A stretch of DNA of 64,000 bases from a bacterium. Its GTDB lineage: Bacteria > Planctomycetota > JAFGQW01. The stretch covers positions 665,488 to 729,487 of the forward strand of contig JAUHXU010000003.1 in assembly GCA_030426805.1 (NCBI GenBank). Reading direction: 5' to 3'. Under the pieces are notes generated by a model. The model worked only from the letters and a program-made list of their open reading frames with translations. It ran no database searches and had not been told where the DNA came from. Below, in pieces: positions 1,649-17,501 of the stretch. A program made the translations under genes and the position numbers. Each line of letters starts with the position of its first letter. The first letter of the stretch is position 1.

Positions 1649-1863
1649 CGTAGACCTTCCTTCGTCGTTGGACGGCACCTCGGGCCGTCACTCCTCTCTC
1701 CGGACGGTCGACTCGGCGGTTGGTTGTGCTTGGCATGCACGCCGGGACGACCACTATCTCTGAAGTCTGCTTCCAAGCTACTCCAGGTGTCCGAAGCCTG
1801 CAATCCCCAAAGGGTTGGAATGCACCGAGCAGAGAATTCCGACGCCAAGGGCGGGGTCGGGGG

Positions 1864-1906
1864 TTGACGGATCCGGGAAACATCCTAATATCCGAATATT
1901 CGGATA
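1864..1906 (+). promoter_or_regulatory. Sigma70-like promoter (TTGACG-N16-TAATAT) with an overlapping 18-nt perfect palindrome TATCCGAATATTCGGATA; putative autoregulatory operator of the downstream ArsR-type regulator
   Basis: -35 at 1864-1869 and -10 at 1886-1891. The perfect inverted repeat at 1889-1906 lies in an unusually AT-rich patch for this roughly 70% GC sequence. Confidence 0.5.
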
Positions 1907-1946
1907 CCCGGTTTCGCGAATCGAGACAGATCGGCAGACACGGACG

Positions 1947-2909
1947 ATGGACGACCAGGCGGTCTTCAAGGCGATGGCAGACGCGACGCGGCGCAACATC
2001 CTGCAGCTCGCATCGCGCCAGGAGCTCAGCGTGAGCGAACTGGTCGACTGCCTGCGTCAGCCCCAGTCCACCGTTTCGCGCCACCTGAAGGTCCTCCGCG
2101 ATGCAGGACTTCTCCACGACCGACGCGAAGGCACCGCCGTGCTCTACGCGGCGCCGGAGAACGCGACGAACGGCAACGGCGACGCGGACCTGCAGGGCCA
2201 CCTCGTCCATTGGCTGGCCGACCGGCCGCTGCCCCCGTCGCTCGCGCGGCGCCTGCGCGGCATCGTCCAGCGGCGGGCGGGGCGCAGTGACGCGTTCTTC
2301 TCGCAGGTCGGTCACCGCTGGGACCAGATGCGACTCGACGCCTTCGGCGACGCGTTCCACCTCGAGGCGCTCGCGATGCTGCTGCCGGGGGACTGGACCG
2401 TCGCCGACATCGGAACCGGGACCGGCTACCTCCTGCCGACGCTCGGGCGTGCGGTCGAGCGCGTGATCGCGGTCGACCCGGTCGCGGCGATGCTCGACAT
2501 CGCCCGCGACCGCGCGGCGGCCGCGGGCGTCGACAACGTCTCGTTCCGCGAGGGCGGACTGTCGCGGCTGCCGCTGGACGACGGTGCGGTCGATCTCGCG
2601 CTCGCCGTCCTCGTCTTGCATCACGTGCCGTCGCCGGCCGATGCGCTGGCCGAGATCTGCCGCGTCGTGCGGCCCGGCGGCCGCGTGCTGATCGTCGAGC
2701 AGTATGCGCACAGCCTCGAGGCGTTCCACGATCGGATGCAGGATCGCTGGTGGGGCTTCGAGCCGGAGGCGCTCGCCGAGTCGGTGACCAGCGCCGGCTT
2801 CGATGCCGTGCGCCACCGACGCCTGCCGGCGAACGGCGCGGCGGACGCGCCCGACCTCTTCGCACTCACAGCCACTCGACCGGACGGCGCGACGCCGAGC
2901 CGGAATTGA
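1947..2909 (+). CDS. sahR: ArsR/SmtB-type winged-helix regulator fused to a SAM-dependent methyltransferase-like domain (SahR-like SAH-responsive regulator)
   Basis: N-terminus [48 protein letters not shown] is an ArsR HTH. The C-terminus [14 protein letters not shown]...VIAVDP...LVLHHVPSP...[12 protein letters not shown] is a class I methyltransferase fold. It lies immediately upstream of ahcY, which is the SahR arrangement. Start chosen at the ATG for MDDQAV; the ORF-track start at 1815 lies within the promoter. Confidence 0.65.
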
Positions 2910-2961
2910 CTTCTTTCGACTGTTCCCAACGAACCCACGGCCCCGGGCCAAGGAGACTTCG

Positions 2962-4272
<1,311 letters not shown>

Positions 4273-8863: not shown

Positions 8864-10273
8864 GTGTCGGCCATGCTCGATCGATCCCACCGCGTGGCCA
8901 TCGCCGCCGCGCTCCTGACGCTCGCCGGCTGCGCGGCTTCGGGCCCGGGTTTCCGCGCCGACGAGACGCCGGCACTCGCGCCCGCGCGCACGACGCCGGC
9001 CGCGCCAGCCGCGGTCACACCGCGGAAGCGATCCGACGAGCCTGCGCGGCTGCACGACTCCGACGGTCGCCTCTCGCTCGCGGGCGCCCTGCGCACCGCA
9101 CTGGAGACGAGCCCGCGCATCCGCGCCGCGCGCGAAGCCGCCGGCGCAGCGGCAGCCCGCGAAGGACACGTCGCCGCATTGCCGGATCCGATGGTGCGCC
9201 TCGGCTGGTACGCCGAACCGATCGAGACCCGAACCGGCCCACAACGCTGGTCGCTCGCCGTGCAACAGGCGATCCCGTGGCCGGGCGCGCTCACGGCCAC
9301 CGCGCGGGTCGCCGAGGCGGGCCGCCGTGTCGCAGAGACGCGGGCAGCGATCACGACGCGCGACGTGCTCGTCGACGTCGCGCGCACCTACCACGAACTC
9401 GACTACCTGCACCGTGCCCGTCAGACGACGACGGCGATCACGCGCGCCCTCGAACGGCTGGTCGCATTCGCCGCGCGAGGTGACGACGACGGACAGGCAC
9501 GCATCCCCGAGACGGTCCGCGCCGAGACGTGGCTCGTGCGCACACGCAACGACGCGCTGATGCTCGAGGAACTCGAACGCACCGAACGCGCACGACTCCG
9601 CTCCCTGCTCGGCCTCTCCCCCGACGCGTCGATCGGCACGCCTCGCGGCATCATCGCGATACCGTTGAATGCATCGGTCGACGCTCTGGCTGCACGCGCG
9701 GAGCAGGGCAACCACGATCTCGCGCTCGCCGCGCTCGAGGCCGAACACGCCGAGCGCGACGCCGAGCGCCTCGCGACGCGCAGCTATCCCCAACTCGCGA
9801 TCGGCGGCCGCTACATCGCGACCGAACGGCGCGACGACGCGGACCCGCGCGGCAACGGGGACGACCCGCTGTTCCTCGAACTCGGGGTGTCGATCCCGAT
9901 CTGGCTCGGCGCGAACGGCGCGGCACACCGCGAGGGCGCGAGTCGTGCGCGCGCCGCCGCGCACGCGCACGACGCGATGCGTCACCGGCTGCGTGCCGAC
10001 ATCGCGCGGGCCTACTGGCGCGCCGCGAACGCCGAACGGTTGTGGCACCTGCATCGCGACGCGTTCGTCCCGCAGGCGCAGCGCGCGGCTGCATCCGCGG
10101 AAGCGCTGTTCGACGAGGGCCACGCGTCGTTCACGGCCGTCGTCGAGACACTCGCCGCGTGGCACCAACTCGAACTCGCGATGCACCGCGCCCGCGCCGA
10201 CTACTTGCAGACGATCGCCGCGATCGAACGCCTCGTCGGCGCGCCGCTCGCTCGCACCGGAGACGACCGATGA
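8864..10273 (+). CDS. TolC-like outer membrane efflux protein (OMF lipoprotein, CusC/CzcC-like), copy 1
   Basis: Signal peptide plus lipobox (LLTLAGCAAS). An alpha-helical, Ala/Arg-rich TolC-like repeat structure, about 470 aa. GTG start at 8864 (ATG at 8873 is an alternative). Confidence 0.75.
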   Translation: MSAMLDRSHRVAIAAALLTLAGCAASGPGFRADETPALAPARTTPAAPAAVTPRKRSDEPARLHDSDGRLSLAGALRTALETSPRIRAAREAAGAAAAREGHVAALPDPMVRLGWYAEPIETRTGPQRWSLAVQQAIPWPGALTATARVAEAGRRVAETRAAITTRDVLVDVARTYHELDYLHRARQTTTAITRALERLVAFAARGDDDGQARIPETVRAETWLVRTRNDALMLEELERTERARLRSLLGLSPDASIGTPRGIIAIPLNASVDALAARAEQGNHDLALAALEAEHAERDAERLATRSYPQLAIGGRYIATERRDDADPRGNGDDPLFLELGVSIPIWLGANGAAHREGASRARAAAHAHDAMRHRLRADIARAYWRAANAERLWHLHRDAFVPQAQRAAASAEALFDEGHASFTAVVETLAAWHQLELAMHRARADYLQTIAAIERLVGAPLARTGDDR

Positions 10274-11781
10274 TCCGCGCAGCACTCGCGCTCGTCGTCG
10301 TGGTCGTCGCCGGTTGCGCCCACCCCGCGCCGGCGCCGACGACGACGCCGTTCGCGCGCGACTTCATCGATGCGGCAGACGCGGCAGACGCGGCGGCCGC
10401 CGAAGAGCCGGCGAGCGCACCCGTCCCGTCGGCCGAGCCCGCCGAGCGACCGGCGGTCCGCGGCCGCGACGACGAACTCGCCGCGACCCTCGGCGGCTCC
10501 GCGCCGCCGATCGACCTGACCGACGACGACCGCTTCGCGTCGTGGCTCGCTGAACCGCGCACAGCCGACGCGCTGATGCGCGCCGCCTGGTTGCGCCATC
10601 CGGCCGTCGCCGCTGCACGCGCGAAGCACCGCGCCGTCGCCCATCGCTACGACCAAGCGCACTACCTCGCCGACACCGTCGGCCGCTACCGCACGTTCAC
10701 CCGCACCCAGATGCAGCGGATCGGTCCGTCCGGCGCCGCGGGCACGCGCGCCGCCGAGTCGATGCTCGTCCCGGCGCCCTCGATCGCGACGCTGCGTGAA
10801 CGCCTCGCGACGCTCGCGACCGACGACGCCTGGCAACGACTGCGCAAGACGATCGTCGACCGGGCGGCGGACGTTCTGGACGCGACCGCGGCACTGCGAC
10901 TCGCCGCGAACCTCGAGCGGATCGCGACCGCGCATGCGGCGCTCCTCGGCGACCTCGAACCGGTCGTGCAGCGACGCGTGTCCGCGGGGCACGGCAGCCG
11001 CGCCGACGTGCTGCGCATCCGCGCCGCAATCGCCGACCTCGAACGCGAGGCGACGGTCCGCGCCGCGGAGCGGACGCACGCGACGACGTGGCTGCGCACG
11101 GCACTCGCTTGCGACGGCACGCCCGAGGTCCGACTCGCGTCCGCGCCGCGCTGGGCGGCGCCGCCGGCAGCCGCCGACCTCGAGCGCGTCGCGCGCACCG
11201 ACGCACCGGCAAGTCGAATCGCGGCGATCGCCGAGGCGCGGGCCGATGCGGCGATCGCGCTCGCCGAACGCATGACGATCCCGCAGGTCGACCTCGGCTC
11301 GACACGCGTGGAGCGCGGGATGACCGGCGACGCCGGCGACGCGCGCACGCCGATGTTGACGCCGACACGGCCCCGCGTCGACGTCGGCCCGATCGGCTTC
11401 GCGCCGACGACCGCGATGCTCGACGAGTTGCGCGAGCGACGCGCGGCGGCGCGCGAACACGTGCGGAGCGTCGCGCGCGACACGACGACGGCGGCGTCCG
11501 CCGCGCGCACGCGCGTGATCGACGCCGATGCACGCTTCGCGGTCCACGAATCGCGGCTCGTCCCGCTGAGCCGCCAGGCATACGACACGCTGCTCGGCGC
11601 CTATGCGGGCCGTCGCGCCGCGTTCGTCGACGTGATTCGCGCCGCCGAGGAGCGGCTGCGCGTCGACCGCGGCCTCGCGCAAGCACAGCACGACGCGACC
11701 CGCGCGCGCGCGACGCTCCTCCGAGCGACCGGCGATGCGCGCACGATCCCCTTCGCACCCACCGCCGGAGACGACCGATGA
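10270..11781 (+). CDS. TolC-like outer membrane efflux protein (OMF lipoprotein), copy 2
   Basis: The ATG overlaps the upstream stop (ATGA). Lipobox VVAGCAHP. It ends in ...TGDDR, as copy 1 does, and has similar composition, which suggests a tandem paralog. Confidence 0.7.
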   Translation: MIRAALALVVVVVAGCAHPAPAPTTTPFARDFIDAADAADAAAAEEPASAPVPSAEPAERPAVRGRDDELAATLGGSAPPIDLTDDDRFASWLAEPRTADALMRAAWLRHPAVAAARAKHRAVAHRYDQAHYLADTVGRYRTFTRTQMQRIGPSGAAGTRAAESMLVPAPSIATLRERLATLATDDAWQRLRKTIVDRAADVLDATAALRLAANLERIATAHAALLGDLEPVVQRRVSAGHGSRADVLRIRAAIADLEREATVRAAERTHATTWLRTALACDGTPEVRLASAPRWAAPPAAADLERVARTDAPASRIAAIAEARADAAIALAERMTIPQVDLGSTRVERGMTGDAGDARTPMLTPTRPRVDVGPIGFAPTTAMLDELRERRAAAREHVRSVARDTTTAASAARTRVIDADARFAVHESRLVPLSRQAYDTLLGAYAGRRAAFVDVIRAAEERLRVDRGLAQAQHDATRARATLLRATGDARTIPFAPTAGDDR

Positions 11782-12467
11782 AGACACTCGTCGTGCCCGT
11801 AGTCGCCGCGATCGTCGCTGGCGTCGCGATCGCGATCCTGATTCGCGCGGGCGGATCCCCGCCGCGACCGACACCCGCCCCGGCGTCCCACGCGCATGCC
11901 GGCCACGCGATGCCGGACAAGCCGAAGAAAGCCGACGCGCACGCGGGACACGCGAAGCCCGCTACACCGACCGACCCGAAACCGGCGGACCCGGCACCGT
12001 CTCCGCCCGACACGCTGCTCGCCCGCCTCGTCGACGCCGGCTACCGGGACGCCGGCAACGAGACGTGCCCGATCATGGGCAACGCGTCCGACGGCGACGA
12101 CCCGACCGTGATCGCCTACAACGGCTGGCTCGTTCGCTTCTGCTGTCCCGGCTGCGACACCCGATTCCTCGCGTCGCCGCGCGACCACCTGCGGGCACTC
12201 CGCGACGGCGGCGACACGATTCCCGACGCACTCCTCGCGGCGGACGCGCACCCCGCGGTCGTCCGCGCGAACAACACCGCGTGCCCGATCACCGGCGCAC
12301 CGGTCGACGACAAGAGCCCGACGATCGTGCACCGCGGAGTCGTCGTGCGGGTGCGCGACACCGACGCGCTCGTCGCGTTCGCGAAGGCGCCCGACCGTGC
12401 GCTCGCCGAGGCCGCAAAGACCGGGACCGTCCCCGCGGACCGCCTCCCCGGCGGAGGTGAACGATGA
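11778..12467 (+). CDS. Membrane-anchored periplasmic His-rich / Cys-motif putative metal-binding protein
   Basis: ATGA overlap with the upstream gene. An N-terminal TM segment is followed by the His-rich stretch HAHAGHAMPDKPKKADAHAGHAKP. Two repeats follow with CPI(M/T)G ... and FCCPGC Cys motifs. It sits inside the heavy-metal efflux operon. Confidence 0.6.
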   Translation: MKTLVVPVVAAIVAGVAIAILIRAGGSPPRPTPAPASHAHAGHAMPDKPKKADAHAGHAKPATPTDPKPADPAPSPPDTLLARLVDAGYRDAGNETCPIMGNASDGDDPTVIAYNGWLVRFCCPGCDTRFLASPRDHLRALRDGGDTIPDALLAADAHPAVVRANNTACPITGAPVDDKSPTIVHRGVVVRVRDTDALVAFAKAPDRALAEAAKTGTVPADRLPGGGER

Positions 12468-13858
12468 CCGGACTGCGACTCGGCTTGGTGCTTGGCGGAA
12501 TCGTGCTCGGGCTCGCGGTCGGGTTCGTGCTGCCGGACCGGTGGCTGTTCGACGGCGTGACCGCGGAATCGGCGCCATCGGGCGCCGGCACTCAGTACGC
12601 GTGCCCGATGTTCTGCGTCGTCGAGAAGACGCTTCCCCCCGACGGCAAGTGCTCGGTGTGCGGCATGGAACTCGCGGCGATCTCGTCGGCGCCGACGATC
12701 GACCGGCACGAGCGCGCGATGATCGGCCTCGAGCCGGCGCGAATCCGGGCGCTGCCGCTCGTGCGTGAGGTACGCCTCTTCGGCGAGGTCGACTACGACG
12801 ACACGCGCATCGTCGCCGTGTCGGCGCGCGCCGACGGCTGGCTCGAGCGGGTCGACGCCCGCGCGACGTGGACCGACGTGAACGAAGGCGACCCGTTGTT
12901 CGCGCTCTACAGCCCGGCGCTCTTCGAGGCGCAGCAGGAGTTCTTGAGCCTGCGCAACGCCGACGCGACGCTTCGCGACAGCGCGGTCGAACGACTCCGA
13001 CTGCTCGGCCTCGACCGCCGCGAGATCGACGCGATCGCCGACGCCGGCGCACCCCAGCGCACGCTCACCTACCGAGCGCCGCGCGCGGGCACGATCGTTC
13101 GGCGTCGCGCGGTCGAAGGTGCCGCGGTCAAACAGGGCCAGGAGATCTACGCGATCGCCGACCTCGATCGGGTGTGGCTCCAGATGGAGGCGTTCGAGAG
13201 CGACCTGCCGTTGCTCCGGCCCGGCGTCGAGGTGCGCATCACCGCCGATGTGCACCGCGCCGACGAACCGGTCGAACGCACCGGCCGCATCGCGTTCGTC
13301 GACCCGGTCGTCGATCCGCGTGCACGCACCGTCCGCGTGCGCGTCGAGATGGACAACCCCCGCACGGACGGTCGCTACGCACTGCTGCCGGGCCAGCGCG
13401 TCGTCGGCGTCGCGCGGTTGCCGCTCGGTGCCGACGAGCCGGACGGCGAACCGGTCCCGACGCTCGCGATCCCGCGCGACGCGATCCTGCGCACCGGGGA
13501 GCGCACGATCGTCTACGTCCTGCACGGGATGACCGACGAGGGCGCACCGGACTACGCGATCGACGCCGATGCACTCCCCGACACGCTCGGCTACGAACTC
13601 GTCGAGGTGGCGCTCGGTCCGCTCGCGCGGCGCGCGGACGCCGAGACCCGTGAGGACTACTATCCGCTCGTCCGCGTCGTGCCGCCGCCACCCGGCGAGG
13701 GCAACGACCTGCGGCTGCGCCGCCTGCGCGCCGGTCACGTGATCGCGCGCCACGGCGCGCTGCTGCTCGACTCGCAGGCACAACTCGCGGGCCGCCCGTC
13801 GCTCCGCTTCCCCACCGGTCGCGACGGCGCGCCCGCCGACCCGCACGCGAACCACTGA
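12464..13858 (+). CDS. Efflux RND periplasmic adaptor (membrane-fusion protein, CusB/CzcB-like) with an N-terminal heavy-metal-binding domain
   Basis: ATGA overlap. YACPMFCVVEKTLPPDGKCSVCGMEL is the YxCPMHP...CPxCGM heavy-metal-binding motif. The rest is HlyD-like beta-barrel and lipoyl-type adaptor sequence. Confidence 0.85.
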   Translation: MTGLRLGLVLGGIVLGLAVGFVLPDRWLFDGVTAESAPSGAGTQYACPMFCVVEKTLPPDGKCSVCGMELAAISSAPTIDRHERAMIGLEPARIRALPLVREVRLFGEVDYDDTRIVAVSARADGWLERVDARATWTDVNEGDPLFALYSPALFEAQQEFLSLRNADATLRDSAVERLRLLGLDRREIDAIADAGAPQRTLTYRAPRAGTIVRRRAVEGAAVKQGQEIYAIADLDRVWLQMEAFESDLPLLRPGVEVRITADVHRADEPVERTGRIAFVDPVVDPRARTVRVRVEMDNPRTDGRYALLPGQRVVGVARLPLGADEPDGEPVPTLAIPRDAILRTGERTIVYVLHGMTDEGAPDYAIDADALPDTLGYELVEVALGPLARRADAETREDYYPLVRVVPPPPGEGNDLRLRRLRAGHVIARHGALLLDSQAQLAGRPSLRFPTGRDGAPADPHANH

Positions 13859-13871
13859 TCGGGAGTCGTCC

Positions 13872-16800
13872 GTGCTCAACGCGATGATCCGCTTCTCCGT
13901 TCGCAACCCGGTGCTCGTGCTGGTGTTCACCGCCGCCGCGTTCGCATGGGGGTGGTCGGCGTGGACGAACAAGACCGTCGACGCGATCCCGGACATCAGC
14001 GAGAACCAGGTGATCGTCGACGCCGCGTGGCCCGGACGCTCACCGAAGGACGTCGAAGACCAGGTGACGTTCCCGCTGTCGACGCGACTCGCGGGCGTCA
14101 AGGGCGTCAAGGAAGTCCGCGGCCTCTCCGGCTTCGGGTTCAGTCGGATCTACGTCGTGTTCGACGAGCCGATCCGGCTCTTCGAGCGCTCGGCGATCGA
14201 CGACTTCTACGAGTCGCGCACGCGCGTGCTCGAGCACCTCGCGACGGTCGCGTCCGATCTGCCGCCGGACGTGACGCCGGAACTCGGCCCCGACGCGACC
14301 GCGCTCGGGCAGATCTTCATGTACACGGTCGACGGGCCGTACGACCTCGCCACGCTGCGCAGCGTCCAGGACTTCGTCGTGAAGTACGAGCTGCAAGCGG
14401 TGCCCGGCGTCGCCGAGGTCGCGAGCGTCGGCGGGCAGGTGCGCGAATACCAGATCGACGTCGACCCCGACAAGATGCGCCACTACCACGTCGGCATCGC
14501 CGAGATCGCGCAGGCGATCCGCCGGGCGAACCTCGACGTGGGCGCGAAGACCCTCGAACAGGGCGGCGAAGAGGCGATCCTCCACGGCCTCGGCTTCATC
14601 GATTCGATCCGCGACATCGAAGAAGTGCCGATCCTCACGCACCAGGCGATGACGCCGGATCGCGACGCGCGTGCGGGGTTGCGCACGCTCGTCGTGCCGC
14701 GAACCGACGGCGGGATCGTCGCCGGCGACCGCGGCGCGCCGGCGCACCGACCGGTGCTCGTGCGCGACGTCGCGACCGTGAAGATCGGGCCGGCGTTCCG
14801 GCGCGGCGCACTCGCGGACGGCGCCGGCGAGCGCACCGGCGGCATCGTCACGATGCGGCTCGGGGCGAACCCCCGCGACGTGATCGAGGGCGTGCGCGCG
14901 GCGATCCTCCGGATGAACGAACCGGCGAACTCGATCCTGCCGCCGGGGGTCCGGATCGTGCCGTTCTACGACCGCACGCAGCTGATCGACGAAACCGTCG
15001 AGACGCTCGAGACCGCACTCGGTCAGGAACTGTGGATCACGATGTTCGTCGTGCTCGTGTTCCTGCTGCACTTGCGATCGGCGCTCGTGATCTCGGTGAC
15101 GCTGCCACTCGCGGTGATCTCGAGCTTCGTGCTGATGGACCTCACCGGCGTCGCGTCGAACATCATGAGCCTGACCGGCATCGCGATCGCGATCGGCACG
15201 ATGGTCGACATGGGCGTCGTGATGACGGAGAACATCTACCAACGGTTGCAGGCCGACGGTGGCGCTCGACCGCGACGCGAGGTGATCGAGGAGGCCGCGT
15301 GCGAGGTCGGACCGGCGCTGCTGACCGCCGTCGCGACGACCGTGATCAGCTTCATCCCGATCCTGTTCCTGACGGATCAGGAAGGCAAGCTCTTCCGACC
15401 GCTCGCGTGGACGAAGACGTTCGCGCTCGGGATGGCGGCGATCGCCGGCGTCTTCGTCGTGCCGGTGCTGTGCCGACTGTTCCTGCGCGAGGGCGCCGCG
15501 GTCCGCGCGCCGGGACAGGGTCGCGCGCGACGAATGCTGACGGTCGCGGCCGTCGCTTCCCTGCTCGGATTCGTCGCCGCGCGGCTGGGGCTGCTCGGCC
15601 TCGAGCCGCTCGTCGCATTCGCGGTCGTCGCCGTGCTCGTCGCGACCGCGGTCGCGTGGATGATGCGCGAACGGCTCGTGCCGATCGACGACAACCCGGT
15701 CACGCGCGCGATCCACGGCGCCTATCGTCCGACGATGCGGTGGATCCTCGACCACAAGCTCACGTTCCTCTCGATACCGCTGCTGATGATCGTCGTCGGG
15801 CTCGTGGTCGCCATCGGCCTGCCGACTGCGCTGCGCCCGGTGCGCGCGATCGTCGGCGACGGCGTCGACCGACTGAAGCCGGTCGCGTGGCTGTCGGAGA
15901 AGTTCGGCGGCATCGGCCAGGAGTTCATGCCGCCGCTCGACGAGGGCAGCCTCCTCTACATGCCGTCGCTGCTGCCGCGCGCGTCGCTCGACGAGGCGCT
16001 CGCGGTGATGCAGCGGCAGAACGCGCAGATGGAACGCGTGCCCGAGGTCGCCAAGGTGATGGGCAAGCTCGGTCGCGCGGAGACCGCGCTCGACCCGGCG
16101 CCGGTCGGGATGTTCGAGACGATCGTCGTGTTGAAGCCGCGCTCGGAATGGCGGCCGGGCAAGCTCAAACGCGACATCGTCAACGAACTGATGCGTGTCG
16201 CGCACACGCCCGGCGCGGCCGCCGGTCCGGGTGCGTGGCTGCAGCCGATCGAGACGCGCGTCGTGATGCTCAGCTCCGACGTGCGCGCGCCGCTCGCGAT
16301 CCGGCTGATCGGCAGCCCGCGCGACGCGAGCGGCCGCACGCTCGACGCGAAGGAGGGAATCGTCGAACTCGAGCGCGTCGCCGCGAAGATCCGCGACGTC
16401 GTCGCGGCCGTCCCCGGCGCGGCCGGCCCCAACGTCGAGAACCTCGGCGGCAAGCCCTACATCGAGTTCGAGATCGATCGCGAGCGCGCGGCGCACTACG
16501 GCGTGTCGGTCGGCGACGTGCAGGACGTGATCGCGACCGCGATCGGCGGCATGGTCGTCGGGCAGACGCTCGAAGGGCGCGAACGCTACGGCATCCGTGT
16601 CGCGTACGAGCGTGAGCGCCGCGACCGACTCGAGTCACTCGACCGCGTGCTCGTTCGGACCGGCACGCGCGGTCACGTGCCGCTCTCGTACGTCGCGACC
16701 GCGAAGCAGACGACCGGGCCGGCGATGATCAAGACCGTCGACGGACGGCTGCGACTCCACGTGATGTTCGCGGCGCGCGACCGCGACGAGCGCTCGGTCG

Positions 16801-17501
16801 TGCTGGACGCGATGAGCCACATCCGCGACTGGCGCCAGGGCGAGATCGCCGCCGGACGGGTCGATCCGATCCCGGCCGGCGTGTCCGTCGAGCCGGCCGG
16901 CCGCTACGAATCGCAGAAGCGCGCGCGCGACCGCTTCATGGTGCTGATCCCGATCTGCTTCGCGCTGATCCTGCTGTTGCTCTACCTCAAGTTCAACGAC
17001 TGGCTGATGACGGTCAACGTACTGCTGGCGGTGCCGGTCTGCGTCGCCGGCGGCGTCGTGCTGATGGCTCTCTTCCCCGACCTGAAAGACGCGATGTTCG
17101 CGATCGGCCTCTGGGACCAGCCCAGCACCGGACCGGTCTACTTCACGGTGGCGGTCGTCGTCGGGTTCATCGCGCTCGCGGGCATCGCGACCGACGACGG
17201 CGTCGTGATCGGTGCGTTCCTCGAGCAGTCGTTCCGCGAGCGCAAGACCGACACGATCCGCGGCATCCGCGATGCGACGATCGAAGCCGGCCTCCGCCGC
17301 ATCCGCCCGTGCCTGATGACGACCGCGACGACGATCCTCGCGCTCTACCCGATCCTCGCGAGCACCGGCCGTGGCTCCGACGTCGCCCAGCCGATGGCGA
17401 TCCCGGCGGTCGGCGGCATGATCGCCGGACTCGTCTCGCTGTTCATCGTCCCCTGCGTCTACTGCTGGGTGCAGGAGGTGCGCCTGAAGCGGAGCGGCTG
17501 A
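13872..17501 (+). CDS. Heavy-metal efflux RND transporter, CusA/CzcA family (HME-RND), with extra internal insertions
   Basis: MIRFSVRNPVLVLV...; twelve-TM RND architecture; the LDEGSLLYMP motif is typical of CusA/CzcA. It is 1209 aa against a typical length of about 1045, because of an extra hydrophobic hairpin before TM7 and an extended periplasmic loop. GTG start at 13872 with a GGGAG RBS. Confidence 0.9.
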   Translation: MLNAMIRFSVRNPVLVLVFTAAAFAWGWSAWTNKTVDAIPDISENQVIVDAAWPGRSPKDVEDQVTFPLSTRLAGVKGVKEVRGLSGFGFSRIYVVFDEPIRLFERSAIDDFYESRTRVLEHLATVASDLPPDVTPELGPDATALGQIFMYTVDGPYDLATLRSVQDFVVKYELQAVPGVAEVASVGGQVREYQIDVDPDKMRHYHVGIAEIAQAIRRANLDVGAKTLEQGGEEAILHGLGFIDSIRDIEEVPILTHQAMTPDRDARAGLRTLVVPRTDGGIVAGDRGAPAHRPVLVRDVATVKIGPAFRRGALADGAGERTGGIVTMRLGANPRDVIEGVRAAILRMNEPANSILPPGVRIVPFYDRTQLIDETVETLETALGQELWITMFVVLVFLLHLRSALVISVTLPLAVISSFVLMDLTGVASNIMSLTGIAIAIGTMVDMGVVMTENIYQRLQADGGARPRREVIEEAACEVGPALLTAVATTVISFIPILFLTDQEGKLFRPLAWTKTFALGMAAIAGVFVVPVLCRLFLREGAAVRAPGQGRARRMLTVAAVASLLGFVAARLGLLGLEPLVAFAVVAVLVATAVAWMMRERLVPIDDNPVTRAIHGAYRPTMRWILDHKLTFLSIPLLMIVVGLVVAIGLPTALRPVRAIVGDGVDRLKPVAWLSEKFGGIGQEFMPPLDEGSLLYMPSLLPRASLDEALAVMQRQNAQMERVPEVAKVMGKLGRAETALDPAPVGMFETIVVLKPRSEWRPGKLKRDIVNELMRVAHTPGAAAGPGAWLQPIETRVVMLSSDVRAPLAIRLIGSPRDASGRTLDAKEGIVELERVAAKIRDVVAAVPGAAGPNVENLGGKPYIEFEIDRERAAHYGVSVGDVQDVIATAIGGMVVGQTLEGRERYGIRVAYERERRDRLESLDRVLVRTGTRGHVPLSYVATAKQTTGPAMIKTVDGRLRLHVMFAARDRDERSVVLDAMSHIRDWRQGEIAAGRVDPIPAGVSVEPAGRYESQKRARDRFMVLIPICFALILLLLYLKFNDWLMTVNVLLAVPVCVAGGVVLMALFPDLKDAMFAIGLWDQPSTGPVYFTVAVVVGFIALAGIATDDGVVIGAFLEQSFRERKTDTIRGIRDATIEAGLRRIRPCLMTTATTILALYPILASTGRGSDVAQPMAIPAVGGMIAGLVSLFIVPCVYCWVQEVRLKRSG

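What the first reader, a model, noticed from the sequence alone, without database searches (positions are those of the whole stretch)
11778..12467. Uncharacterised His-rich, Cys-motif periplasmic protein embedded in the efflux operon
A 229-aa protein with an N-terminal membrane anchor and a His-rich low-complexity segment (HAHAGHAMPDKPKKADAHAGHAKP). It also has two repeats carrying CPI(M/T)G-x(8-10)-P(T)-(I/V) ... and FCCPGC Cys clusters. This looks like a metallochaperone that feeds the adaptor/RND, analogous to CusF/CzcE in function. The sequence is unrelated to CusF (no Met/Trp site) and its Cys motifs differ from classical HMA/TRASH domains.
Basis: partly seen in the sequence, partly recalled or inferred. 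Interest (0 to 1): 0.55.

Follow-up and report, generated by a model that had tools for sequence, protein, structure and literature searches.

The report
Exported TRASH/YHS copper-binding protein in cus operon
The gene is real and encodes an exported protein with one intact and one decayed copy of a known small metal-binding fold (TRASH/YHS); it sits where E. coli keeps its copper chaperone CusF inside a copper/silver efflux-pump operon, so it is probably an untested, cysteine-based stand-in for CusF.

Summary
Window 11778-12467 (+) is a real 229-aa gene. It joins both neighbours by ATGA overlaps, inside a five-gene operon: two outer-membrane factors, this gene, a CusB-like adaptor and a CusA-like RND pump.

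The protein is unrelated to CusF, and it occupies the CusF slot of a Cu(I)/Ag(I)-type pump. All three CusA methionines are conserved.

The claim that the Cys motif lies outside TRASH is wrong. Residues 80-155 (domain A) are a divergent TRASH/YHS domain:
- 10 of 14 orthologues and 111 of 125 wider homologues hit Pfam TRASH/YHS models.
- hhalign against a canonical YHS gives 92% probability.

The motif is a variant, C97-x2-M100-x21-C122-C123-x2-C126. The four cysteines are invariant in 125 homologues.

Residues 156-229 (domain B) are a decayed copy. It lacks the CCxxC cluster but is still under purifying selection. The His-rich linker is only loosely conserved.

Synteny is conserved in five independent loci. 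Small lipoprotein relatives sit beside CusCBA-like, Cu-ATPase or multicopper-oxidase genes in 5 of 6 loci examined.

I found no solved structure and no publication for this family. Verdict: a new variant of a known domain, probably a periplasmic Cu(I)/Ag(I) chaperone, of moderate interest.

The parts
8873..10273 (+). Outer-membrane factor 1, 466 aa, a lipoprotein with lipobox LTLAGC. First gene of the operon.
   Evidence: Pfam OEP E 1.3e-31 with two stretches. The exact product is on record. N-terminus shown. Its stop overlaps the next start by 4 nt.
10270..11781 (+). Second outer-membrane-factor-like lipoprotein, 503 aa, lipobox VVAGC.
   Evidence: Only a weak OEP hit at the C-terminus, E 3e-7. 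The exact product is on record. It is paired with factor 1 in every syntenic locus.
11778..12467 (+). The gene in question: a 229-aa exported tandem TRASH/YHS-like protein.
11778..11849 (+). Residues 1-24. N-terminal signal anchor, or a cleavable signal peptide. The hydrophobic core is residues 4-22, followed by I-R-A.
   Evidence: Kyte-Doolittle 19-mer score of 3.04. An Arg directly after the segment is present in all 12 full-length orthologues, and -1 is A/S/G in most. Relatives carry classical signal peptides or lipoboxes.
11889..11960 (+). Residues 38-61. The His-rich stretch HAHAGHAMPDKPKKADAHAGHAKP, inside a Pro-rich disordered linker (residues 25-79).
   Evidence: pLDDT below 50 for residues 28-56. 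A loose GH.MP(D/E) motif and His+Met enrichment appear in 10 of 12 orthologues. Amino-acid identity in the linker is only 62% against the closest orthologue.
12015..12242 (+). Residues 80-155. Domain A, the intact TRASH/YHS-like domain. Its motif C97-P-I-M100-G ... F-C122-C123-P-G-C126 spans nt 12066-12155.
12243..12464 (+). Residues 156-229. Domain B, a decayed copy of domain A that keeps C169 but has lost the CCxxC cluster. It ends in the conserved tail AAKTGTVPADRL.
   Evidence: hhalign against the domain-A profile gives 96.4% probability, E 1e-9. Its secondary-structure pattern is the same as domain A. dN/dS is 0.21. Most orthologues still have CCxxC at this position.
12464..13858 (+). CusB-like periplasmic adaptor, 464 aa. 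It has a TM anchor (residues 6-24) and an N-terminal Cys4 HMBD-like motif, YACPMFCVV...CSVCGMEL (residues 45-71, nt 12596-12676).
   Evidence: Pfam HlyD_D23 E 1e-57, the CusB hairpin model HlyD_D4 E 3.3e-7, and HMBD at 20.2 bits, below the 23.6 cut-off. The motif is invariant in four other syntenic adaptors.
13872..17501 (+). CusA-type heavy-metal RND pump, 1209 aa.
   Evidence: TIGR00914 scores 783.7 bits, above the 701.45 cut-off. It scores 650 bits against E. coli CusA. The residues aligned to CusA M573, M623 and M672 are all Met. TM4 reads AIGTMVDMGVVMTEN.

Best explanation
The protein is an exported accessory of a CusCBA-type Cu(I)/Ag(I) efflux pump. It is either tethered to the inner membrane by its N-terminal helix or released by signal peptidase.

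Proposed mechanism:
- Domain A is a TRASH/YHS-fold mini-domain. The classical second Cys ligand has become Met100, and an extra Cys123 has appeared next to ligand 3.
- This gives an all-sulfur site (C97, M100, C122/C123, C126) suited to binding Cu(I) or Ag(I) in the periplasm.
- The bound ion is passed to the membrane-proximal Cys4 HMBD-like N-terminal domain of the CusB-like adaptor. From there it goes to the three-methionine site of the CusA-like pump and out through the outer-membrane channel.
- Functionally this is the job CusF does in E. coli, done with a different fold and with thiolate rather than Met/His/Trp chemistry.
- Domain B is a decayed duplicate that no longer forms the cluster. 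It packs against A as one rigid unit and probably serves as a scaffold or docking surface.
- The flexible Pro/His(/Met)-rich linker may act as a low-affinity capture arm.

Shown here: gene reality, domain homology and fold, Cys invariance, operon structure, the Cu/Ag signature of the pump, conserved synteny, and export signals in the family.

Inferred only: metal binding, metal identity, direction of transfer, and partner contacts.
For: Operon and coupling:
- ATGA overlaps on both sides, and a 13-nt gap before the RND gene.

Pump type:
- TIGR00914 above its cut-off.
- Best PDB match is CusA at 650 bits, against ZneA at 351. Met is conserved at the positions of CusA M573, M623 and M672.
- The same EGxLLYM and AIGTMVDMG(I/V)V motifs occur in syntenic RNDs.

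Domain identity:
- The profile of 13 repeat copies retrieves 158 small proteins, most with precomputed PF04945 and several named YHS/TRASH domain-containing protein.
- 10 of 14 orthologues hit TRASH_HVO_1752_C (best E 2.3e-9) and 8 of 14 hit YHS (best 2.8e-11). In the wider set, 111 of 125 hit YHS.
- hhalign against a canonical YHS from a Cu-ATPase in a syntenic locus gives 92% probability, E 6.5e-7. It maps C97 to ligand 1 and M100 to ligand 2.
- The AF2 model of the A-B module has pLDDT 95 and pTM 0.87.

Conservation:
- The four cysteines are invariant. M100 is nearly invariant in orthologues.

Context:
- The cassette OMF-OMF2-X-adaptor-RND occurs in L001, L002, L003, L011/L012 and L015. In two of these a P1B-1 Cu-ATPase follows, with the CPC, YNx4P and MxxSS motifs.
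- Relatives lie next to CusCBA-like pumps, a Cu-ATPase, or CsoR plus a multicopper oxidase in 5 of 6 loci examined.

Export:
- 105 of 125 homologues have an N-terminal hydrophobic signal, and 76 of these are lipobox-like.

Adaptor:
- A conserved Cys4 motif sits at the position where CusB carries its metal site.

Literature:
- YHS/TRASH domains bind metals through (C/D)x2C...Cx3C, and a YHS domain acts as a copper-sensing module (PMC4626032).
- An archaeal TRASH protein, CopM, is described as a copper-binding protein of the cop operon (PMC5328820).
Against: - No biochemical data exist for any member, and no solved structure of a sequence relative was found.
- The target itself scores below Pfam thresholds.
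- Cys4-type TRASH sites are often structural Zn sites. L24e and phenol hydroxylase are examples.
- In an oxidising periplasm the cysteines could form disulfides.
- Topology is predicted only. The charge distribution around the TM helix is ambiguous: K2 lies on the N-side, R23 and R30 on the C-side.
- I could not inspect model coordinates, so the clustering of the sulfur ligands is unverified.
Confidence: 0.5

Rival explanations
1. It is a structural accessory subunit. The TRASH/YHS-like domain holds a structural Zn(II) or disulfides. The protein then acts as a stoichiometric scaffold or assembly factor for the unusual pump (two outer-membrane factors, an enlarged RND) without carrying substrate metal.
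For: - Domain B has lost the cluster yet is under equally strong purifying selection.
- The A-B module is predicted to be one rigid unit, with pTM 0.87.
- Tight translational coupling suggests fixed stoichiometry.
- The invariant Arg after the TM helix and the conserved C-terminal VPADRL tail look like contact motifs.
Against: - The family tracks copper loci of different architectures: RND pumps, P1B-1 ATPases, and a multicopper oxidase with CsoR. That fits a metal-handling role better than a pump-specific scaffold.
- Single-domain lipoprotein relatives have no scaffold-like extensions.
- Ligand 2 is replaced by Met in orthologues, which suggests tuning for a soft metal.
Confidence: 0.2
2. It is a periplasmic copper buffer or thiol-based redox protein rather than a hand-off chaperone. 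It would sequester Cu(I), possibly as a multinuclear thiolate cluster using the CC pair. Or it would reduce Cu(II) to Cu(I) so that the pump can take it, with no specific docking to the adaptor.
For: - The adjacent CC-x2-C cysteines are invariant.
- Many relatives are multi-repeat proteins with 3-9 copies, which would give high capacity.
- Some relatives sit beside a multicopper oxidase and an outer-membrane factor with no RND gene.
- The linker is rich in His and Met.
Against: - This protein has only one intact site, so its capacity is low.
- Its fixed position between the outer-membrane-factor and adaptor genes, with overlapping stop/start codons, recurs in five loci. That argues for a pump-coupled role.
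Confidence: 0.15
3. The topology is reversed: N-terminus out, domains in the cytoplasm. The protein would then be a membrane-tethered cytoplasmic TRASH chaperone, like archaeal CopM or ATPase N-terminal YHS domains. It would feed cytoplasmic Cu(I) to the RND or to a Cu-ATPase.
For: - Nearly all described TRASH/YHS domains are cytosolic (PMC4626032).
- The positive charges flanking the TM helix do not clearly favour N-in: K2 against R23 and R30.
- Rhizobial Cu-ATPases carry a His-rich stretch followed by two TRASH/YHS copies, the same order as here (PMC5552934).
Against: - Orthologue P0134 has a 45-residue Arg-rich N-terminal extension before the TM helix, which cannot plausibly be exported.
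- Relatives have unmistakable cleavable signal peptides and lipoboxes.
- The [ILVA]-R-[ASG] pattern after the hydrophobic core resembles a signal-peptidase site.
Confidence: 0.05
4. It is a periplasmic metal sensor or regulator of the operon: a membrane-anchored sensing module that signals to a partner.
For: A YHS domain acts as a copper-sensing module in the M. phlei adenylyl cyclase (PMC4626032). No dedicated regulator gene lies next to the operon.
Against: - There is essentially no cytoplasmic part, only 3 residues before the TM helix.
- No kinase, sigma or anti-sigma partner appears in this locus or in any syntenic locus.
- The gene sits in the middle of the structural genes.
Confidence: 0.05

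Closest known systems
TRASH / YHS metal-binding domain superfamily (Pfam PF04945 YHS, PF24273 TRASH_HVO_1752_C, PF08394; structural prototypes are ribosomal protein L24e and the C-terminal domain of phenol hydroxylase PhN)
   Same: - About 50 residues: a beta-hairpin followed by a helix.
- One ligand pair lies before the hairpin and a Cx3C lies at the hairpin/helix junction.
- It shares the FC.xxC...F...P signature.
   Different: - Ligand 2 is Met rather than Cys (Ser in the lipoprotein relatives).
- An extra invariant Cys follows ligand 3, giving CCxxC.
- The protein is exported rather than cytosolic.
- The domain is duplicated and the second copy has lost the cluster.
- The target itself is below the Pfam gathering scores.
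CusF, the periplasmic Cu(I)/Ag(I) chaperone of E. coli CusCFBA
   Same: - A small exported protein encoded between the outer-membrane-factor gene and the adaptor gene of a CusA-type pump.
- It is presumed to deliver metal to the N-terminal region of the adaptor. CusF's own role is described in PMC6235853.
   Different: - There is no sequence or fold relationship. CusF is an OB-fold with a His/Met/Met/Trp site (my own knowledge), and no Pfam hit was found here.
- The chemistry here is thiolate-based.
- The protein may stay membrane-tethered.
- It has two domains.
Archaeal CopM, the small TRASH-domain copper-binding protein of the Sulfolobus copTMA/copRTA cluster
   Same: A stand-alone TRASH-type protein encoded inside a copper-efflux gene cluster and proposed to traffic copper to the transporter (PMC5328820).
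   Different: CopM is cytosolic, has a single domain, partners a P-type ATPase, and has the classical Cys pattern. The protein here is exported, tandem, and partners an RND pump.
N-terminal metal-binding region of some rhizobial P1B Cu-ATPases (a short His-rich segment followed by two TRASH/YHS copies)
   Same: The order of elements is the same: a His-rich stretch, then two TRASH/YHS-type domains (PMC5552934).
   Different: That region is fused to the ATPase and is cytoplasmic. Here the protein is separate and exported, and its second copy is degenerate.
Small lipoproteins annotated 'YHS domain-containing protein' in Verrucomicrobiota and Planctomycetota, for example P0037, P0089 and P0106
   Same: They have the same CCxxC variant of the domain, are exported, and are encoded next to OMF/HMBD-adaptor/RND genes.
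   Different: - They have a single domain and a lipobox instead of a TM helix.
- They carry a different conserved loop (GSMG, HEG).
- Their position in the operon varies: before the outer-membrane-factor gene or after the RND gene.
- They are uncharacterised as well.
SilE / PcoE-type disordered His/Met-rich periplasmic metal binders
   Same: The linker (residues 25-79) is disordered and enriched in His, with recurring H.M-type spacing. SilE is described as an intrinsically disordered silver binder in PMC10407283.
   Different: Here this is only a short linker with 5 His and 1 Met. It is poorly conserved and is attached to folded domains.

Membership tests
TRASH/YHS domain superfamily | Match of the protein itself to a family HMM above the curated threshold | tested here: not met
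   The best scores for the excised domain are 17.3 bits on TRASH_HVO_1752_C (cut-off 27) and 13.7 bits on YHS (cut-off 30.3). The full protein scores 14.7 and 11.6 bits.
TRASH/YHS domain superfamily | Homology demonstrable through intermediates or profiles | tested here: met
   - 10 of 14 orthologues hit TRASH_HVO_1752_C (best E 2.3e-9) and 8 of 14 hit YHS (best 2.8e-11).
- 111 of 125 wider homologues hit YHS.
- hhalign of the repeat profile against a canonical ATPase YHS gives 92% probability, E 6.5e-7.
- Several hits are named YHS/TRASH domain-containing protein by their sources.
TRASH/YHS domain superfamily | Ligand signature (C/D)-x2-C-x19-22-C-x3-C (PMC4626032) | tested here: not met
   The mapping gives C97-x2-M100-x21-C122-x3-C126. 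The spacings fit, but ligand 2 is Met, and an extra Cys123 is present. Domain B keeps only ligand 1 (C169).
TRASH/YHS domain superfamily | L24e-like hairpin-plus-helix zinc-ribbon fold | tested here: met
TRASH/YHS domain superfamily | Binds a transition-metal ion through the conserved residues | not testable with these tools
   This needs purified protein.
CusF family (periplasmic Cu/Ag chaperone) | CusF-type sequence and fold with a His/Met/Met/Trp site | tested here: not met
   No CusF-family hit appears in Pfam or NCBIfam even at E up to 10 or 1. The predicted fold is a zinc-ribbon type, not a beta-barrel.
CusF family (periplasmic Cu/Ag chaperone) | Encoded between the outer-membrane-factor and adaptor genes of a CusA-type pump | tested here: met
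   Gene order and overlaps are shown. The same order recurs in L001, L002, L003, L011 and L015.
CusF family (periplasmic Cu/Ag chaperone) | Periplasmic location | tested here: inconclusive
   An N-terminal hydrophobic segment is present and family-wide signal peptides or lipoboxes are seen. However, the topology of this protein is only predicted, and its flanking charges are ambiguous.
CusF family (periplasmic Cu/Ag chaperone) | Transfers Cu(I)/Ag(I) to the adaptor N-terminus | not testable with these tools
   This requires metal-transfer assays.
HMA (heavy-metal-associated, ferredoxin-like GMxCxxC) domain | PF00403 match and the GMxCxxC loop | tested here: not met
   No HMA hit was found, and no CxxC occurs in the protein.
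CusCBA-type Cu(I)/Ag(I) HME-RND system (the operon) | RND of the CusA/CzcA family with the CusA three-methionine site; CusB-like adaptor; outer-membrane factor | tested here: met
   - TIGR00914 scores 783.7 bits, above the 701.45 cut-off.
- Met is aligned to CusA M573, M623 and M672.
- The adaptor hits HlyD_D23 at E 1e-57 and the CusB hairpin model.
- OEP domains are present.
- Substrate specificity itself is not tested.

The most novel reading that the evidence does not exclude
The CCxxC variant of the TRASH/YHS fold defines a previously unrecognised class of exported, thiolate-based Cu(I)/Ag(I) chaperones. This class would replace CusF in the CusCBA-type pumps of Planctomycetota, Verrucomicrobiota and related bacteria. 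It would hand the metal to a Cys4 HMBD-like domain on the adaptor. That would be an all-cysteine periplasmic relay, chemically distinct from the methionine relay of E. coli. In this lineage the protein is a tandem in which one copy has been converted into a metal-free docking domain.
Probability: 0.35. Interest if true: 0.65.

Novelty: new variant of a known kind. Interest (0 to 1): 0.45.

Why it matters
Periplasmic copper hand-off to RND pumps is understood almost entirely from E. coli CusF and CusB, which use methionine, histidine and tryptophan. That choice is usually explained as avoiding oxidisable thiols in the periplasm.

This family would test that explanation. It has about 2,200 representative clusters by exhaustive HMMER. 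It is exported, keeps invariant cysteines, and repeatedly sits beside CusCBA-like pumps, Cu-ATPases and a multicopper oxidase. If it traffics copper, then thiolate chemistry is used for the same job in a large, poorly studied part of the bacterial tree.

It would also give the TRASH/YHS domain its first periplasmic role. The domain was predicted in 2003 to traffic metals but has rarely been tested.

Practically, these proteins could then be annotated better than 'hypothetical' or 'YHS domain-containing'. They would also serve as a marker for copper/silver efflux loci in metagenomes.

Tried and rejected
- Direct Pfam, NCBIfam and PADLOC scans of the protein gave nothing above threshold. The weak NCBIfam BamI and IniB hits are low-complexity noise.
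- Foldseek against the PDB gave no hit with E <= 0.001. The afdb50 library was unavailable.
- PDB sequence searches with the repeat profile and the orthologue profile gave only sub-significant PhN YHS hits and a spurious low-complexity capsid hit.
- The genome-contig scan failed with the diverse repeat alignment. With the close alignment it returned only two distant loci and did not recover the source genome.
- The third word-index homology search, using the orthologue alignment, was swamped by linker words and returned only 6 proteins.
- The organism could not be identified. The window has no Rfam hit, and every window protein looked up is an unnamed singleton cluster.
- The promoter/terminator scan was uninformative.
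- I first read N94 as the counterpart of TRASH ligand 1. I dropped this after hhalign placed C97 at ligand 1 and M100 at ligand 2. N94 is also not conserved in the wider family.
- I rejected a second functional Cys site in domain B of this protein, because the CCxxC positions read RDxxA.
- I rejected divalent Czc-type specificity (the CzcE analogy), because the RND carries the CusA-type TM4 motif and methionine triad.
- There are no other copies of the motif in the 64-kb window.
Full report
**1. The observation**

It is a real gene, for five reasons:
- The identical product is on record from public assemblies, including a 1.1-Mb NCBI contig.
- GC3 in this frame is 0.87 (0.91 over the folded part). 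The overlapping minus-strand and alternative plus-strand ORFs, typical shadow ORFs of a ~70% GC genome, have 0.58-0.66.
- Against the 77%-identical orthologue P0002, dN/dS is 0.25 overall.
- The start overlaps the stop of the upstream gene (ATGA at 11778-11781).
- The stop overlaps the start of the downstream gene (ATGA at 12464-12467).

Residues 4-22 are a strongly hydrophobic 19-mer. The His-rich string is at residues 38-61, exactly as quoted.

The two repeats are genuine. Residues 155-229 align over 51 columns to a profile built from 13 domain-A-type repeats, with hhalign probability 96.4% and E 1e-9.

Two details need correcting. The spacer after CPI(M/T)G is 7 residues, not 8-10. Only repeat 1 has the FCCPGC cluster.

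**2. Surroundings**

The gene is the third of five tightly packed co-directional genes:
- An outer-membrane factor lipoprotein (8873-10273, Pfam OEP E 1e-31).
- A second, divergent outer-membrane-factor-like lipoprotein (10270-11781).
- The gene in question.
- A CusB-like adaptor (12464-13858; HlyD_D23 E 1e-57 and the CusB hairpin model).
- A 1209-aa RND pump (13872-17501).

The pump is of the Cu(I)/Ag(I) type:
- It passes the curated NCBIfam cut-off for CusA/CzcA heavy-metal RND transporters, 783.7 against 701.45 bits.
- Its best solved relative is E. coli CusA at 650 bits, against 351 for the zinc pump ZneA.
- In that alignment the residues opposite CusA M573, M623 and M672 are all methionine.
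- Its TM4 reads AIGTMVDMGVVMTEN. From my own knowledge of HME-RND signatures, this is the monovalent-cation pattern rather than the DFG...DGA...VEN pattern of Czc pumps.

The adaptor has an N-terminal TM helix followed by YACPMFCVV-x8-CSVCGMEL. This is a four-Cys variant of the HMBD motif, at 20.2 bits, just under the 23.6-bit cut-off.

The flanking genes are unrelated to metals: FxsA, Fic, SAH hydrolase, an ArsR-methyltransferase fusion, sulfotransferases and polysaccharide genes. There is no adjacent regulator.

**3. What the protein is**

Direct database scans fail. Pfam gives only sub-threshold TRASH_HVO_1752_C (E 0.005 on the excised domain) and YHS (E 0.06). Homologues settle the matter:
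- A profile of 13 copies of the repeat retrieved 158 proteins of 100 aa or less. Most carry precomputed PF04945 (YHS) hits. Several are named 'YHS domain-containing' or 'TRASH domain-containing' protein, from Akkermansiaceae, Verrucomicrobiaceae, Limisphaerales, Phycisphaerales and Planctomycetes.
- Scanning members individually, 111 of 125 hit YHS and 101 of 125 hit TRASH_HVO_1752_C at E <= 0.01.
- Among the 14 proteins sharing the target's full architecture, 10 hit TRASH_HVO_1752_C (best 2.3e-9) and 8 hit YHS (best 2.8e-11).
- hhalign of the repeat profile against a textbook YHS domain gives 92% probability, E 6.5e-7. That domain, DPVCGM...FCSESC...F..DP, comes from the N-terminus of the Cu-ATPase in a syntenic locus.

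That alignment maps the site onto the published signature (C/D)-x2-C-x19-22-C-x3-C (PMC4626032). C97 is ligand 1, M100 is ligand 2, C122 is ligand 3 and C126 is ligand 4. C123 is an extra residue. The motif is therefore C-x2-M-x21-C-C-x2-C: a variant pattern on a homologous scaffold.

C97, C122, C123 and C126 are invariant in 125 of 125 homologues. M100 is nearly invariant among orthologues, and is Ser in the single-domain lipoprotein relatives.

**4. Structure**

AlphaFold2 on the full protein predicts a TM helix, a disordered linker (pLDDT below 50 for residues 28-56) and two confident domains. The A-B module alone, modelled with 37 homologues, reaches mean pLDDT 95 and pTM 0.87. Domains A and B have identical secondary-structure patterns: short strands, a hairpin and two helices.

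- MYND, HIT and YacG zinc fingers.

**5. Family and evolution**

An exhaustive HMMER search of 1.84 billion representatives with the A-B module found 2,231 clusters at E <= 1e-3, 417 at <= 1e-10 and 18 at <= 1e-30. Most are proteins with 2-9 tandem CCxxC repeats.

About 14 representatives share the target's architecture of TM helix, low-complexity linker and A-B module.
- In most of them, domain B still has CCxxC (P0129, P0130, P0132, P0134, P0135, P0137, P0139, P0146) or CSxxC (P0128).
- The cluster is lost in the target, P0002, both modules of P0003, P0159 and P0141, and partly in P0131.
- In P0003 and P0159 even C169 is Ser.

So domain B here is a decayed metal site. It is nevertheless as constrained as domain A (dN/dS 0.21 against 0.23) and retains conserved non-Cys residues such as HP.V, VHRGV, PDR.L and the VP(A/E)(D/E)RL tail.

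The linker varies in length (40-99 aa) and sequence. His+Met are enriched about two-fold in 10 of 12 orthologues, and a loose GH.MP(D/E) motif recurs. Two orthologues have almost none.

**6. Context elsewhere**

The cassette OMF / OMF-like / A-B protein / CusB-like adaptor / large RND recurs in L001 (P0003), L002, L003, L011/L012 (P0159) and L015 (P0135). The adaptor motif CPMFCVV...C.VCGM.L is the same in each.

In L011 and L015 the next gene is a P-type ATPase with CPC, YNx4P and MxxSS. This is the P1B-1 Cu+ signature quoted in PMC5552934.

More distant relatives gave the following:
- P0005 and its relative in L005 lie between a CsoR-like repressor plus Cu-ATPase and an OMF plus multicopper oxidase.
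- P0006, P0037, P0089 and P0106 lie immediately beside OMF / HMBD-adaptor / RND genes.
- P0117 does not.

That is 5 of 6 in a small sample, partly chosen for long contigs.

The family is exported. Of 125 homologues, 105 have an N-terminal hydrophobic signal, and 76 of these have a lipobox-like motif. The rest are mostly truncated ORFs.

**7. Mechanism**

The best-supported reading is a periplasmic Cu(I)/Ag(I) chaperone that does CusF's job with a TRASH/YHS fold.
- An all-sulfur site in domain A captures the ion.
- The protein stays close to the inner membrane, either tethered or concentrated there.
- It passes the ion to the Cys4 mini-domain at the adaptor's membrane-proximal N-terminus. CusB carries its acceptor methionines at the equivalent place (PMC6235853, PMC6715271).
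- The CusA-type methionine triad then takes over.

Shown here: homology, fold, invariance, operon structure, pump type, synteny, and export signals in the family. Inferred: binding, metal identity, transfer and docking.

Rivals:
- A purely structural Zn or disulfide accessory subunit (0.2).
- A buffer or redox protein (0.15).
- Reversed topology with cytoplasmic domains (0.05). The 45-residue Arg-rich N-terminus of P0134 and the family's signal peptides argue against this.
- A sensor (0.05).

**8. Known or new**

The domain is known. TRASH was predicted in 2003 to serve metal sensing, trafficking and resistance (Ettema et al., cited in PMC5328820 and PMC5552934). Database pipelines already label the single-domain relatives as YHS proteins.

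Full-text searches found no study of an exported TRASH/YHS protein in a cus-type operon.

The new elements are:
- The compartment.
- The Met/extra-Cys ligand rearrangement.
- The tandem with a decayed copy.
- The fixed CusF-like position.
- The pairing with a Cys4 adaptor domain.

I class it as a new variant of a known kind. Interest is moderate. It is not surprising in principle, but it is a concrete, testable alternative to the methionine relay.

Noticed in passing
window 8873-10273 and 10270-11781: Two outer-membrane-factor lipoprotein genes lie in tandem with overlapping stop and start. The second is divergent, with only a weak C-terminal OEP hit. The pair is conserved in every syntenic locus (L001, L003, L011, L015), which hints at a heteromeric outer-membrane channel.
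   Followed up: partly
window 13872-17501, especially about 15543-15665 (RND residues 558-598): The CusA-like RND is 1209 aa. It has about 88 extra residues between the regions aligned to CusA TM6 and TM7. These contain two additional hydrophobic 19-mers, possibly giving 14 TM helices. RNDs in related loci are similarly long (1148-1258 aa).
   Followed up: partly
window 12596-12676 (adaptor residues 45-71): The adaptor carries a four-Cys motif, Y.CPMFCVV-x7-8-C.VCGM.L, right after its TM anchor. It is a sub-threshold HMBD (PF19335) variant with Phe-Cys in place of His-Pro. The motif is invariant in the adaptors of L001, L002, L011 and L015.
   Followed up: partly
L001 6711-7328; L011 5308-5997; L001 6144-6542; L015 5591-6061: Relatives have extra genes at the head of the operon that the window lacks. 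One is a secreted protein with three CCxxC YHS-like repeats. Others are small secreted proteins with runs of 3-4 consecutive cysteines (for example SCCCGP and SCCCCRES).
   Followed up: no
L005 about 8900-12302; L006/L007 5287-11508: A different recurring cassette: CsoR-like repressor, Cu-ATPase, a three-repeat YHS-like protein whose last repeat has decayed (as in the target), an outer-membrane factor and a multicopper oxidase. There is no adaptor or RND gene. An outer-membrane factor paired with an oxidase is unusual.
   Followed up: no
window 1815-2909 and 2803-4272: An ArsR-type HTH fused to a SAM-dependent methyltransferase lies next to S-adenosylhomocysteine hydrolase. A similar pair, an HTH_20 regulator plus a methyltransferase, lies near the P0005 copper locus (L006 12702-14174).
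   Followed up: no
window 11844-11846 (R23) and 12429-12446 (VPADRL): Two conserved features of the orthologues have no explanation. An Arg directly after the TM helix occurs in all 12 full-length members. The C-terminal tail AAK.G.VP(A/E)(D/E)RL is also conserved.
   Followed up: no
whole window: There is no Rfam family hit in the 64 kb. Every window protein looked up is the sole member of its 90%-identity cluster and carries no name. The source lineage therefore has no close sequenced relatives in the collection and could not be identified.
   Followed up: partly
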